This document shows positions 12,001 to 27,100 of a stretch of 64,000 nucleotides of DNA, piece after piece. Numbering within the stretch: the first letter of the stretch is position 1; each line of letters begins with the position of its first letter. The stretch is from Pecten maximus (lineage: Eukaryota). Location: positions 19,592,001-19,656,000 of the forward strand of contig NC_047017.1 of assembly GCF_902652985.1 (NCBI RefSeq), written 5' to 3'. The position numbers are program-made.

Positions 12001-13934
12001 ATTTAGCAGTAAACATTTAGCATAAAGTATTTCTCATTTAGCAGTGAACATTTAAATGTTAGCATGTCATACCGGCTTTCCATAATTAAAATACAATGAA
12101 ATGCTTTTTGCTAAAAGTTTTATGCGAATTTTTTACTTTTGCTAAATGCTTATGCGAAATGCTTTAAGCATTTAGCATTCCTCATCAGGCATTTAGCATA
12201 TCGTACCATATCGATTTCCATAGAAAATAATTCATTCACAAATTTCTGTTTTCAACTAGATGTTCGCAACAAAAAAGGCTTTAAAATAAATTCCTTGGTT
12301 TCAAATCTTAATGTCACTCTTATTTAGATATTGCTGGAAAAATTATATTTCTTTAATGGTTCGCTTTGATTGACAATTTTTGAACCTTAAAAACATGATC
12401 AAGAGTGGATGGGGATAAGTGTGTCAAAAGTTAGCTACGATGTGTGGAGATGGAGGAGTCAACCGGTACCGAAGATGGGTGGAGAGGGAGGTGTCAAAAG
12501 TTAGTCAGGGTGGTTAGAGATGGTTCAGTGTGGGTGGGGTGGCGATAGAGGTGTCAATAATTGGCTCGTGTAGGTTGAGATGGGGGTATCAAAAGTTAGT
12601 CAGGGTTGGTGGAGATGGAGATGTCAAGAATTGGCTTGGGTAGGTTGAGATGGAGGTGTCAAAAGTTAGTCGGGGTGGGTGGAAATGGAGATGTCAAGAA
12701 TTGGCTTGAGTAGGTTGAGATGGAGGTGTCAAAAGTTAGTCGGGGTGGGTGGAAATGGAGATGTCAAGAATTGGCTTGAGTAGGTTGAGATGGAGGTGTC
12801 AAAAGTTAGTCAGGGTGGGTGGAGATGGAGATGTCAAACGTTAGCTAGTATGAGTGGATATAGAGATGTCAAAAAGTGTGTTATGGTGGATGGAGACAGA
12901 GCTTTAAAAAGTTAGCTAATAAAGATAGAGACTTCTTCCACAGTTTACAGATTTATCTCCAGTTTTAGACGTAAGAAATGTCTCTGTCAACCCCTAGGGT
13001 ATGACAAACCGCACTGAACCGGAAGTACTTACGGAACTTCTTTTTGAGTGACGTCACTATTGTCCCCGCGTTGTTATTTAATGTTAAATATCCGTATGAG
13101 ACACAAGTTTTATGAAATGACAAGATGTATTGTTATAAATATTAGAATAGTATCATCGATACCTTATTTTAGTGTCTATTTGAATGAATATTGTTGATTA
13201 ATTTTAGACCTATGTTTTCTTGTGTAATGAAATTGGTATGCATTTTTGGGGTCGTGATGGTACTTCTTCAAATGAAGTTATTTGTGCGCCGACCATATGT
13301 ATTTGTTTAATACAAACAAACCTTGATCACCGATGGGTGTGGAGGTGTCAGAATATACATTGTAGTAGGGATAGAAGTGCATAATGACGCTTTCATAAAC
13401 TCATGTGAGACATAGCACTGATAGATAACACCAGGAAGTGTGTTCTTATATACCGCTTATCGGCCACCGTATTTTGTGACGTTACATTTGATTTGGGTGA
13501 TCATCCATGACCGATTAACAGACTGTTAAGTTGTATAGACATGTCCGAAGTACCAGAAGATGTCGAAATTCGAACAAAGGAGATGCATACGGGCGGGGAA
13601 CCATTGCGAGTGATAGAGTCTGGCTTCCCCTCCCTCGGGGGCGACACCATACTGGATAAAATTCGTTTCATCAGGGAAAATTTTGACGCATACCGAAAAT
13701 TTCTGATGTATGAACCACGCGGTCACTATGACATGTACGGAGCATTGGTAGTACCAGCCGACAACAAGAAAGCTGACATAGCCACGATCTTCATGCACAA
13801 TGAAGGGTACAGTACGATGTGTGGACACGCAGTTATCGCCCTTGGACGATACGCTGTAGATTCGGAATTAGTCCGGAACCCTTCCAGTCCGGAGACCCGT
13901 GTGGCCATCAGTGGCGTAGGAAGTCGTCAAAAAG

Positions 13935-13966
<32 letters not shown>

Positions 13967-24100: not shown

Positions 24101-27100
24101 ACTCTCTCCCAAACTAGGTTAAGATTCTCATGTTACATAGTATTGTGTCCTACATTCTGGATAAAAAAATATATTATAATTTGATAAAACCACAGGGGTT
24201 AGGCGCGGACCCACGTCACAAAAAATAATTGTCAGACAATTATTATTATAGGATTTTACGTCCATGCTCAACGGACTTCATTAACATATCCTTATTTACA
24301 TGCGTCTGCATCTGGTTTGCAATTGCAGAAACAATCAGCACCCTTCTACTTCATGATACATATTACGTCAATGTCGAATAGCGAGATGATTCGTATCGCT
24401 TGAGATGCCTTGTTTCATTACGTAACAATATCATTACATTATACATGCATACAGATATATATTTTCCAAAAACACACGTCATAATTCTGAATGATATTCA
24501 TTGACAGTTATTAATAAAAAAGGGAAATTAATTTTAAAAACACCACCAAAAACTTTTAAATATGTATTTTGAAGGTTCTACTGATAATGTGTATTTATGG
24601 GTAAAGAGATTCAGAAACCTAGCCCTAGTAATCTCGCGGATGCGGCAGCTGTGCATCGCTACGTTATCTATTTGGTATATACATGTTCATGAATATTCAT
24701 TCATACCTATACTGGTACGTGTATAATATTTATATGTTTCAAGATGTTTCTGTGGATGTCCCAGAATATGGAAACGTGACCGTAGACATAGTCTACGGAG
24801 GAGCATTCTACGCCTTCGTAGCCGACGCGCAGTACAACTTCCGGTTGGGAGAGGTTCCCTTACAGGAAGTTAGGAACGCAGCCGGAGCTACTACAGGTGT
24901 TGTTATACATAACAAATAATACAAAATAACAAAACTACGGTAAATTTTACTATTGGCGTTACATTACATACAGACATAGTAGCACGCCTTGATCCGTATT
25001 TCTCGGGAAGCTGAGACTACGGACTATCTTGTGCTGTCATATGTTGTGTTCTTGGGGAAGATACTAAAATACACTATACCACTGTGGGAAGTATTCGCCT
25101 GCATTGTGTTTGTGAGGTAGCCACCAGCTACTACAAGGATAGACCGTCTCACAATTAAATGAATTGTGAGACGATGATGTCGATTTACCGACACATTTTC
25201 ACGTTTCTACAACTGCTCGACTTACATTAATGACATCATTAGATGTCAAATTGTGAATTATCATTAATGTTTGGTGACTTATTTTGATAAATGCGATGTT
25301 GGTAATATATGTACATGAATCATTCAATCGTTTGAAGAGCACCAAAAAGGAAGATGGAGCCCGCGAGAAACTTTTCTTCAGTCATCTTCCTGTCTGTGTC
25401 TACAAAGACATAAGTTTATTTTATCAAGTGTACATCCCATTGTTCTGCATTGTCTCCGCTAAGATGTAAATGGTTAATGGGCACCGCAACACAATGTCTG
25501 TGTCTTCTGCTGTTGGCGTGGATTTTTGTCTCTGCAAGTGTCTTGAACCACCATAAAACATCAATGTGTAATGCTGTCGTTGTAGTTCTGGTCGAGTTTT
25601 ATTGTTACTATCTAAATGTTGATTATCCTTAATTTAAGCTGATGTGTTTTGTTGATGTTCTTTACAACCAATGTATTTATCTGTGTTACTCTTTTTTGCT
25701 TTTAAATAAGACGCCCTTAAGAAGCAGTTAAAGCTAAGTCATCCGGACAGTGATGACCTCGCCTTTCTGTATGGGACCATCGTAACGGACGGACAAGACG
25801 GACAGGACGGATCCAGCGATAAACTTTCGTCTAATGTCTGTGTTTTCGCGGAAAGACAGGTATGAACTCCATGTAATTCAAGGCAAAGTACATACACAGA
25901 GTAGTCTATTGGTTATTGTATTATTATCATTATTATTTGTATATAATCATTTATACATGTCGGCACATCTCGGCCGATTCTCTACGATCATTACCGGGAT
26001 CGGCCGAGGTTAGCCGAATGATACTGTAGTTACAGTAATAGCACAATGGTATCTTCCTTAATTAAATTTCAACGAGTTGCATGAGCCCCTAGCTGTCATT
26101 GTTTGCCGATAATGAGATGTTTATAGTGAACCAATATATGAAAAAGAGCAAGCAAACCCATTCCCATTTATACATTTTTGATTGTTTGAATTTCTGTTTA
26201 ATGCCCTCTCCACTGTGACCATCTTCATATTCCCCCTTTCTTCTACACAGATTGATAGGTCACCCTGCGGTTCTGGAGTAACGGCCAGAATCGCCAGACA
26301 GTACCATAAAGGTTATGTCGGACTAGGACAAGCCAAGGAATTTCTGGGACCATCTGGAGCCAAATTCACAGCCAAGGCCGTAACGGAAGTGACGTATGGC
26401 GGATTCAAGGCAGTAGTGGTCGAGGTTTCCGGTAAAGGACACTACTGTGGCTCATCAACATTTTCTTTGGAGAAGGATGACGTCATAGGTCGTGGCTTTC
26501 TCCTTAAGTAATTTCTGGCCAACATGGCCATGATGGGAGCTGCTTTACTTGAGAATTTATTTGCAAATGGATTGTTAATACAAAAGGTATCCTATAACTT
26601 CTTGCGATTAATAGGCCTAACCATAGTTTTGAAAACACTTAATTTGGAAATCAATCAAGGAAAGTTGAAAGTGTAAAGTGGTTTTGTCCAAAATTGACTA
26701 ACGAAAAACAAAAATCTAGCTTTTATGTCTTTTTTCTGCATGTGCGCCAGGCTTTCTTTTCACCCTTTAGTAATGTATGCAGACGAAAACCCCAATGCGC
26801 TTACATCTTTGCATTCAATTCTTATACAACTTGCCAATTAAAACATACTTATATATGTAGTTTACATTGTGTTTGTATTATTGCTGGTTTACATTGTGTT
26901 TGTATTATTGCTGGTTTACATTGTGTTTGTATTATTGCTTTAACATTTTCTAAAACCATATTCCAAATAGATACGGCTGACGCTTGTTATTCTTAGACAT
27001 CGTACAAGAAATTCGCAGTCCGGTTTGCGTACAAATTAGAATTGTATTCAGTAAGGACGAATTAAGATTATGACGAGGTAATCAATTATTCTTGCCCTTT

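What the first reader, a model, noticed from the sequence alone, without database searches (positions are those of the whole stretch)
13437..26511. Four tandem exon1-exon2 cassettes feeding one shared exon3-exon4 (nascent variable/constant locus)
Seen: a segment from 104 bp upstream of the ATG to about 30 bp into intron 2 is present four times (ATGs at 13541, 17522, 20336, 23231; period about 2.8-2.9 kb excluding the transposon), but exons 3-4 occur once. A is transposon-disrupted, C is frameshifted, B is intact with a phase-1 donor compatible with the exon-3 acceptor at 25711. Inference: B could splice to exon 3 and give a full protein, as in UGT1A/protocadherin-style alternative 5' cassettes, or the array could alter dosage.
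Basis: partly seen in the sequence, partly recalled or inferred. Interest (0 to 1): 0.65.

Follow-up and report, generated by a model that had tools for sequence, protein, structure and literature searches.

The report
Partial tandem duplication of enzyme gene
The front half (promoter region, exons 1 and 2) of a proline-racemase-family gene is repeated four times head to tail before a single back half; this looks like a young, decaying partial gene duplication rather than a working variable/constant gene system.

Summary
A 1.8-kb segment G runs from 104 bp upstream of the ATG to 38 bp into intron 2. It occurs four times at 98-100% identity: copy A 13437-16451, B 17418-19224, C 20232-22036, D 23127-24934. 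A roughly 1-kb spacer S separates the copies, so the array is G-S-G-S-G-S-G. It is followed once by exon 3 (25711-25859) and exon 4 (26251-26511). The gene belongs to Pfam Pro_racemase and has the Cys-Cys catalytic pair. Copy A is split by a 1208-bp inverted-repeat transposon. Copy C carries a 19-bp frameshifting duplication at exactly that transposon's target site, possibly an excision footprint. B is intact and phase-compatible with exon 3. The variable/constant reading is only partly supported. B and D differ by 3 residues. Each cassette contains an internal exon 2 whose acceptor region is identical in all copies, so read-through RNA would most simply stack exon 2 in frame (153 nt, phase 1-1). 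Two of the three upstream cassettes are broken. Mosaic variant patterns indicate unequal crossing-over or gene conversion, and two paralogous genes in the window also show conversion. Best reading: a young partial tandem duplication, probably neutral or mildly harmful. No RNA, reads or related genomes could be checked.

The parts
13437..13909 (+). Copy A of repeated segment G, left part: 104 bp of 5' flank and the first 369 nt of exon 1 (ATG 13541)
   Evidence: Alignment edge at 13437; translation; sequence
13910..15117 (.). 1208-bp non-autonomous DNA transposon inside exon 1 of copy A. It has 14-nt perfect terminal inverted repeats, poly-G/poly-C subterminal runs and a 6-bp target-site duplication (13904-13909 and 15118-15123).
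   Evidence: Copy A without the element and one target-site copy equals B over the compared 52 nt. No stop-to-stop ORF of 120 aa or more lies wholly inside it.
15118..16451 (+). Copy A of G, right part: end of exon 1 (donor after 15223), intron 1, exon 2 (16261-16413) and 38 nt of intron 2
16452..17417 (+). Spacer S_A: 616-bp minisatellite (10-11-bp units) plus a 350-bp tail whose last 137 bp (17281-17417) form a near-perfect palindrome ending at the S|G junction
   Evidence: (DNA fold -50.8 kcal/mol, z -10.95)
17418..19224 (+). Copy B of G: intact exon 1 (17522-17990) and exon 2 (19034-19186)
   Evidence: exon 1 matches Pfam PF05544, E 3e-46
19225..20231 (+). Spacer S_B (658-bp minisatellite plus 349-bp tail with palindrome)
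20232..22036 (+). Copy C of G: exon 1 (20336-20823) frameshifted by a 19-bp tandem duplication (repeat tract 20692-20737); exon 2 (21846-21998) intact; private 11-bp insertion and 25-bp deletion in intron 1
22037..23126 (+). Spacer S_C (737-bp minisatellite plus 353-bp tail with palindrome)
23127..24934 (+). Copy D of G: exon 1 (23231-23699) and exon 2 (24744-24896). This is the only copy directly continuous with exons 3-4.
24935..25710 (+). Single-copy remainder of intron 2
   Evidence: only short weak matches elsewhere in the window
25711..25859 (+). Exon 3 (149 nt, phase 1 to 0), single copy for this array
   Evidence: No Pfam hit on its own at E<=0.01, but it is 64-76% identical to exon 3 of the two paralogues.
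26251..26511 (+). Exon 4 with the second catalytic-motif cysteine and the stop codon
   Evidence: (PF05544, E 4.8e-19)

Best explanation
This is a real, evolutionarily young partial tandem duplication of the 5' part of a four-exon proline-racemase-family gene (Cys-Cys type). One founding event placed a second copy of G behind the first, with a roughly 1-kb spacer S between them. S consists of a minisatellite and a 350-bp tail ending in a 137-bp palindrome. Unequal crossing-over and gene conversion between the G and S repeats then raised the array to G-S-G-S-G-S-G and produced a mosaic of shared variants. Only D is a complete gene. A, B and C are 3'-truncated fragments that are not visibly maintained. 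A is split by a DNA transposon. C carries a frameshift at that transposon's target site, most simply a repair scar left when the same element excised. B is still intact because it is young. If the short shared promoter region is active, B and C are transcribed like D and probably read through, because the spacers contain no AATAAA or ATTAAA. Such RNAs would most simply include every downstream exon 2, which stays in frame, rather than jump to exon 3. Shown: the anatomy, frames, identities, breaks and family. Inferred: the order of events, the excision scar, transcription and splicing outcomes, and the lack of function.
For: Every copy has private variants. A has the transposon and 2 substitutions. 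B has 1 substitution. C has 3 indels and 7 substitutions in the 3' part. D has 14 substitutions in the 3' part. The minisatellites differ in length (616, 658, 737 bp) but share the same order of variant units. The variant pattern is mosaic: in the 5' part A-C differ at 4/908 and B-D at 4/914 against 7-9 for the other pairs; in the 3' part A-B differ at 0/893, A-D and B-D at 14/893 and C-D at 20/867; spacer tails S_A-S_B differ at 0/349. This pattern needs recombination between copies. Two of the three upstream cassettes are broken. Copy A with the element replaced by the 13 nt that follow its right target-site copy equals C exactly over 71 nt. A and C also share the 5' haplotype. B and D differ by only 3 residues. 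Exon 2 is 153 nt, phase 1 to 1, and its acceptor region is identical in all copies. No AATAAA or ATTAAA lies between any exon-2 donor and the next copy. The family assignment rests on PF05544 for 4 of 5 exon peptides and on PDB relatives. The cluster is recombinationally active: exon 1 of the two other paralogues is 455/472 identical against 71-82% for their other exons. Partial duplicates make up a large share of young duplicates in animals (PMC3449122, passages).
Against: B is fully intact, and nothing in the sequence excludes that it is used. With about 10 coding differences among the copies, selection cannot be measured. Proximal sequence is identical for B, C and D: at least 1 kb upstream is shared, and all four copies are identical from the 5' edge of G to 212 nt into exon 1. 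Whatever drives D should therefore also drive B, so B transcripts are quite possible. The origin of spacer S is unexplained; it has no other copy in the window. The 19-bp lesion in C can equally be described as a simple slippage duplication between 6-8-nt microhomologies. Copy number could not be checked against reads.
Confidence: 0.7

Rival explanations
1. Functional alternative 5' cassettes. Each cassette fires from its own promoter. B, like D, is spliced to the shared exons 3-4, giving full-length enzyme from alternative promoters. This would be an incipient variable/constant locus.
For: One set of 3' exons lies behind four cassettes. B is intact and phase-compatible. A TATATA motif lies 89-94 nt before each ATG inside the duplicated 104 bp. 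B, C and D share identical proximal upstream sequence. No canonical poly(A) signal in the spacers would stop read-through.
Against: The cassettes are nearly identical: 3 residue differences between B and D, and identical exon 2 in A-C. Each cassette has an internal exon 2 with an acceptor, unlike first-exon-only variable units (PMC1885805 passages). Reaching exon 3 from B requires skipping two acceptors identical to its own. Two of the three upstream cassettes are inactivated. There are no expression data.
Confidence: 0.1
2. The copy number is an assembly artefact. The true locus has fewer copies, for example two per haplotype, and the assembler threaded two haplotypes or looped through the repeat. 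A and C would then be alleles (element present versus excised), and B and D would be alleles.
For: The 5' halves alternate as type 1, 2, 1, 2. A and C carry lesions at the same site, as expected of insertion and excision alleles. A and B are identical over 893 bp of G plus 349 bp of spacer tail, a length over which short reads could be mis-threaded.
Against: There are no gaps. The three spacers are three distinct sequences with different minisatellite lengths and private substitutions. The B-to-C junction is a regular spacer, not flanking DNA. Every copy has private variants. A simple two-haplotype concatenation would carry flanking sequence between B and C.
Confidence: 0.12
3. Amplification by a mobile element. 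The G+S unit was captured and multiplied by a rolling-circle or other element, with the palindrome-bearing spacer tail being part of that element.
For: The spacer tail ends in a 137-bp palindrome exactly at the S|G junction. The tail has no counterpart in the flanks of the array.
Against: I saw no terminal hallmarks at the unit edges by eye. There is no other copy of the spacer tail in the 64-kb window and no transposase or Rep ORF in the array. The outermost G copies are continuous with native flanks and the native gene.
Confidence: 0.05

Closest known systems
Partial (structurally heterogeneous) tandem gene duplicates and copy-number variants in animal genomes
   Same: Head-to-tail, near-identical copies whose breakpoint lies inside the gene (intron 2), so the extra copies lack the 3' exons. 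The copies are young and decaying. Such duplicates form a large share of young duplicates in C. elegans and Drosophila (PMC3449122, passages read).
   Different: There are four copies rather than two. A roughly 1-kb spacer of unknown origin with a minisatellite and a long palindrome sits at every junction. Recombination between the units has made them mosaic.
Multiple-variable-first-exon clusters (UGT1, clustered protocadherins, GCNT2)
   Same: A tandem array of 5' coding units lies upstream of a single shared set of 3' exons. The clusters arose by tandem duplication of the 5' units (PMC1885805, passages read).
   Different: In those clusters each variable unit is one first exon with its own promoter, spliced separately to the constant exons, and the units are diversified. 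Here each unit has two exons, one internal with an acceptor. The units are 98-100% identical, two of three extra units are broken, and use is unproven.
Proline racemase / hydroxyproline epimerase / trans-3-hydroxy-L-proline dehydratase superfamily (Pfam PF05544)
   Same: PF05544 matches exons 1, 2 and 4. The best solved relative is deposited as trans-3-hydroxy-L-proline dehydratase, 7qpo (E 3e-51 for exon 1, 7.5e-25 for exon 4). Both conserved motifs are present.
   Different: The second catalytic position is Cys here and in both paralogues; the aligned 7qpo residue is Thr. That places the gene in the Cys-Cys type (racemase/epimerase) rather than the Cys-Thr dehydratase type (PMC4364671, passages). 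Activity is untested.
Tandemly duplicated internal exons (recalled from general knowledge; no call)
   Same: Exon 2 is present four times, is symmetric (phase 1-1, 153 nt), and could be included more than once without breaking the frame.
   Different: The duplicated unit also carries a promoter region and a first exon. Nothing suggests mutually exclusive use.

Membership tests
Variable-first-exon / constant-exon cluster (UGT1, Pcdh, GCNT2 type) | Tandem array of 5' coding units upstream of one shared set of 3' exons | tested here: met
   Four G copies, then a single exon 3 and exon 4 for this gene
Variable-first-exon / constant-exon cluster (UGT1, Pcdh, GCNT2 type) | Each variable unit is a single first exon (donor only), spliced separately to the first constant exon (PMC1885805 passages) | tested here: not met
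   Each unit holds exon 1 plus an internal exon 2. The acceptor and the preceding 137 nt are identical in all four copies.
Variable-first-exon / constant-exon cluster (UGT1, Pcdh, GCNT2 type) | Units encode diversified protein segments | tested here: not met
   B and D differ at 3 of 206 residues. Exon 2 is identical in A, B and C.
Variable-first-exon / constant-exon cluster (UGT1, Pcdh, GCNT2 type) | Each unit has its own active promoter | tested here: inconclusive
   Only 104 bp of native 5' flank is duplicated. It holds a TATATA motif 89-94 nt before the ATG. Activity cannot be tested, and the upstream regions of the paralogues show no obvious conservation by eye.
Variable-first-exon / constant-exon cluster (UGT1, Pcdh, GCNT2 type) | Transcripts joining each unit to the constant exons exist | not testable with these tools
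   No RNA data are available
Partial tandem gene duplication | Head-to-tail copies of high identity with a breakpoint inside the gene, so the extra copies lack part of the coding sequence | tested here: met
   Homology ends 38 nt into intron 2. Copies are 98-100% identical.
Partial tandem gene duplication | Copies are physically distinct rather than an assembly repeat | tested here: inconclusive
   Private variants in every copy and three different spacers argue for distinct copies. Reads are not available.
Pro_racemase superfamily (PF05544) | Profile match above the curated cut-off | tested here: met
   Exon 1 scores 155.1 bits, exon 2 36.6 bits and exon 4 69 bits against a cut-off of 27. Exon 3 alone gives no hit at E<=0.01. 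Exons were searched one by one, not joined.
Pro_racemase superfamily (PF05544) | Two catalytic residues: Cys-Cys for racemase/epimerase, Cys-Thr for the dehydratase (PMC4364671 passages) | tested here: met
   The MCGH motif is in exon 1 and SPCGSG in exon 4. The aligned residue in 7qpo is Thr. This is the Cys-Cys type by sequence only.
Non-autonomous terminal-inverted-repeat DNA transposon (element in copy A) | Terminal inverted repeats, target-site duplication and a matching empty site | tested here: met
   14/14-nt inverted ends and a 6-bp duplication. Copy A without the element and one duplication copy equals B. The superfamily was not assigned.
microRNA precursor (palindrome in spacer tail) | Match to an Rfam family at its gathering score | tested here: not met
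   There are only sub-threshold matches, to many unrelated miRNA models on both strands. The best is 48.1 bits against a gathering score of 100. This is the signature of a generic hairpin.

The most novel reading that the evidence does not exclude
The array is a variable/constant locus caught at birth. B, and C before its frameshift, fire from the duplicated 104-bp promoter and read through the spacers. Their RNAs yield either full-length enzyme via exon 2(B)-to-exon 3 splicing or isoforms with two to four in-frame copies of the 51-residue exon-2 segment. Selection could then begin to diversify the cassettes. A smaller but better-supported novelty: copies A and C preserve, side by side in one array, the inserted state and the excision scar of the same transposon. 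The scar has the form of a templated insertion.
Probability: 0.08. Interest if true: 0.5.

Novelty: new member of a known kind. Interest (0 to 1): 0.22.

Why it matters
If the ordinary reading holds, this is one more young partial tandem duplication. It is useful mainly as an annotation warning: gene predictors may build false multi-exon models through the array. It is also a clear example of how unequal crossing-over, gene conversion and transposon traffic reshape a small gene cluster. If B-type or stacked-exon-2 transcripts exist, the locus would show the first step by which alternative 5' cassettes, or internally repeated proteins, arise. The paired transposon and scar in sister copies would be a natural record of excision repair.

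Tried and rejected
1. Rfam scan of 12000-27500 at E<=0.1. There were 28 sub-threshold matches, all to assorted miRNA precursor models. Most were on both strands of the spacer palindromes and four were on the transposon's G/C runs. None was near a gathering score, so I reject a known RNA gene.
2. tRNA scan of the whole window: 0 genes.
3. I looked for other copies of the spacer tail, the transposon, the rest of intron 2 and the upstream flank within the window. There were none beyond the array, apart from homopolymer matches at about 27546-27576. The origin of the spacer stays unknown.
4. Rolling-circle-type capture: I saw no terminal hallmarks at the unit edges by eye, so I give it low weight.
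5. The promoter and terminator scan tool was not used because it models bacterial signals. Upstream regions of the three paralogues were compared by eye only and showed no obvious shared motif.
6. I tried to decide which copy is ancestral using the paralogues as outgroup, reading by eye. The signals conflict, and conversion with the paralogues in the 3' part of exon 1 confounds them. Abandoned.
7. Literature search for this family in invertebrates (listing only) found nothing relevant.
The phage, plasmid and E. coli collections were not searched for the same reason. The protein-atlas and structure tools were not used, because the family is already clear and a joined model was not to be made.
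Full report
**What is there**

The window has no N. Its composition is about 30-42% G+C. Repeat finding and self-BLAST show a head-to-tail array between about 13.4 and 24.9 kb.

A four-way alignment fixes the edges to the base. Homology among all four copies starts at 13437 / 17418 / 20232 / 23127. It ends at 16451 / 19224 / 22036 / 24934. I call this 1.8-kb segment G.

G holds, in order:
- 104 bp of 5' flank
- exon 1, 469 nt, ending in phase 1
- intron 1, about 1.04 kb
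- exon 2, 153 nt, phase 1 to 1
- the first 38 nt of intron 2

Copies A, B and C are each followed by a spacer S: 16452-17417, 19225-20231 and 22037-23126. D is not. After 24934 it runs into single-copy intron, then exon 3 (25711-25859) and exon 4 (26251-26511, stop included). The array is therefore G-S-G-S-G-S-G, not four whole units.

**The gene**

I searched the model exon by exon.

- Pfam PF05544 (Pro_racemase) matches 4 of the 5 peptides submitted. These are exon 1 of D (E 3.2e-45, profile positions 3-143), exon 1 of B (3e-46), exon 2 (3.7e-9, 146-191) and exon 4 (4.8e-19, 242-324).
- Exon 3 alone gives nothing at E<=0.01. It fills the profile gap and is 64-76% identical to exon 3 of two paralogues.
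- The best solved relative is deposited as trans-3-hydroxy-L-proline dehydratase (7qpo), with E 3.3e-51 for exon 1 and 7.5e-25 for exon 4.
- At the second catalytic motif 7qpo has Thr where this gene has Cys. With the MCGH cysteine in exon 1, this makes it the Cys-Cys type. The passages I read in PMC4364671 assign that type to proline racemase and hydroxyproline epimerase, and the Cys-Thr type to the dehydratase. Activity is inferred only.

**State of the four cassettes**

- **D** is complete.
- **B** is open in both exons. It differs from D by one residue in exon 1 (Val/Ala at 110) and two in exon 2.
- **A** is interrupted at 13910-15117 by a 1208-bp element. The element has 14/14-nt inverted ends, long G and C runs just inside them, and a 6-bp target-site duplication. 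Copy A without the element and one duplication copy equals B over the compared stretch. No open frame of 120 aa or more lies wholly inside the element, so it is non-autonomous. I did not assign a superfamily.
- **C** has a 19-bp tandem duplication in exon 1 (repeat tract 20692-20737). This shifts the frame into stops. It is not in a homopolymer, so a simple consensus error is unlikely.

**A link between the lesions in A and C**

The 19-bp duplication in C lies at the transposon's target site. C reads: target-site copy, 13 nt, target-site copy. The 13 nt repeat the 13 nt that follow the right-hand copy. Copy A with its element replaced by those 13 nt is identical to C over 71 nt.

A and C also share the same variant type in the 5' part of G, where this site lies. 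They share five substitutions and a 6-bp indel against B and D, and differ from each other at only 4/908.

My rough estimate is that two independent lesions in a 1.8-kb unit would fall in the same register on the order of 1% of the time. This is not a computed figure. I therefore think it more likely than not (about 0.5-0.6) that the element entered the common ancestor of the A and C 5' halves and later excised from C. The scar would be both target-site copies plus a templated fill-in. Microhomology-flanked templated insertions are described as typical of polymerase-theta end joining in the one passage I read of PMC11368404. A plain slippage duplication between the 6-8-nt microhomologies remains possible.

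**History of the array**

The copies are a mosaic.

| Region | Pair | Differences |
|---|---|---|
| 5' part of G | A-C | 4/908 |
| 5' part of G | B-D | 4/914 |
| 5' part of G | other pairs | 7-9 |
| 3' part of G | A-B | 0/893 |
| 3' part of G | A-C, B-C | 7/867 each |
| 3' part of G | A-D, B-D | 14/893 each |
| 3' part of G | C-D | 20/867 |
| Spacer tail | S_A-S_B | 0/349 |
| Spacer tail | S_A-S_C, S_B-S_C | 2 substitutions |

The three minisatellites are 616, 658 and 737 bp. They keep the same order of variant units and differ by a few unit-sized indels. The minisatellite was therefore already in S when the unit was amplified.

An alternating 1-2-1-2 pattern in front, with A=B behind, cannot come from one event. 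It needs a founding G-S-G and then at least two unequal crossovers or conversions. I did not resolve the exact order.

The same forces act nearby. The window holds two more four-exon paralogues: gene 2 on the minus strand (35859-33102) and gene 3 on the plus strand (46149-49938). Their exon 1 is 455/472 identical, with the last 350 nt or so 100% identical. Their other exons are only 71-82% identical. That is a conversion tract between inverted copies about 10 kb apart.

**The spacer**

S begins where the native intron 2 of D has a single motif resembling the minisatellite unit. After the minisatellite comes a 350-bp tail. Its last 137 bp form a near-perfect palindrome (DNA fold -50.8 kcal/mol, z -10.95, 0 of 200 shuffles as stable) that ends exactly at the S|G junction.

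The tail has no other copy in the window. It matches Rfam only as a generic hairpin, below every gathering score. Its source is unknown. It could be filler captured at the founding junction, a foldback element, or a template switch at a palindrome.

**How it most likely works**

All four copies are identical from the 5' edge of G to 212 nt into exon 1. This stretch includes a TATATA motif 89-94 nt before each ATG. B, C and D also share the spacer upstream.

There are two possibilities. If the promoter fits in this shared sequence, B and C fire whenever D does. If it needs the native flank that only the broken copy A retains, D would be poorly served. The sequence cannot decide between them.

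No AATAAA or ATTAAA lies between any exon-2 donor and the next copy; the only ones in the units are inside intron 1. Read-through is therefore plausible.

A B-initiated read-through RNA meets the exon-2 acceptors of C and D before exon 3. The 137 nt before each acceptor are identical in all copies. Because exon 2 is 153 nt and phase 1-1, including it two or three times keeps the frame. Each inclusion would insert extra copies of a 51-residue segment at the start of the second half of the enzyme. All of this paragraph is inference.

**Comparison with known systems**

[quoted passage not shown] In the passages I read of PMC1885805, each variable unit in those clusters is one first exon with its own promoter. 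It is spliced separately to the constant exons, and the units are diversified. Here the unit has an internal exon, the units are 98-100% identical, and two of the three extra units are broken. Membership is not met on two tested features.

The locus fits the class of partial tandem duplicates. By the passages read in PMC3449122, these make up a large share of young duplicates in C. elegans and Drosophila and are thought mostly to start without function.

**What stayed unchecked**

- There are no RNA data and no reads.
- There are no related eukaryotic genomes. The open contig collection holds only bacteria and archaea, so I did not spend its scan.
- The organism is not identified. The introns, a reverse-transcriptase element and a GPR180/TMEM145-like exon show an animal-like genome. 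I saw nothing to suggest it is human.
- Supplementary files of the cited papers were not seen. They do not bear on the claims made here.

**Verdict**

This is a young partial tandem duplication in a recombining three-gene cluster, with a possible transposon excision scar. Interest is low to moderate.

Noticed in passing
window 33102-35859 (minus strand) and 46149-49938 (plus strand): Two further four-exon paralogues of the same Pro_racemase-type gene, both with the Cys-Cys motifs. With the arrayed gene they form a three-gene cluster. Exon 1 of these two is 455/472 identical (last 350 nt or so 100%), while their other exons are 71-82% identical. This indicates a recent gene-conversion tract between inverted copies.
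   Followed up: partly
window 48817-48954: Exon 3 of the plus-strand paralogue (gene 3) is 2 nt shorter than in the other two genes. It would leave the frame before exon 4, and tblastn splits it into two frames. It may be a pseudogene or a consensus error.
   Followed up: partly
window 23231-23699 versus 35388-35859 and 46149-46620: Identity between the arrayed gene and the two paralogues rises from about 41-45 of 60 nt in the first 240 nt of exon 1 to 50-56 of 60 in the last 180 nt or so. This suggests older conversion among all three genes, or strong constraint on that part.
   Followed up: no
window 41008-43083 and 44039-44617 (plus strand): Open frames with reverse-transcriptase domains (PF00078, E 3.6e-38 and 1.7e-13) lie between the two paralogues. 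This is a retroelement, possibly in two pieces.
   Followed up: no
window 12367-12916: A 35/70-bp G-rich satellite of about 5 to 9 units lies 0.5 kb upstream of the array.
   Followed up: no
window 9040-9648 (minus strand): An open frame matches the GPR180/TMEM145 transmembrane domain (PF10192, E 2.8e-22). It is probably an exon of a neighbouring gene.
   Followed up: no
window 26860-26939: A perfect 27-bp repeat of three copies lies about 350 nt after the stop codon of the arrayed gene, just past an ATTAAA at 26837.
   Followed up: no
window 4001-6000 and 52001-54000: Two stretches have extreme GC skew (-0.57 and +0.62). Long stop-free frames in the first (4680-5987 and 5765-6553) have no Pfam match. 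This is probably low-complexity repeat.
   Followed up: no
window 27546-27576: A G run with flanks matches the subterminal G run of the transposon in copy A (31 nt, 97%). It may be a remnant of a related element or just a homopolymer.
   Followed up: no
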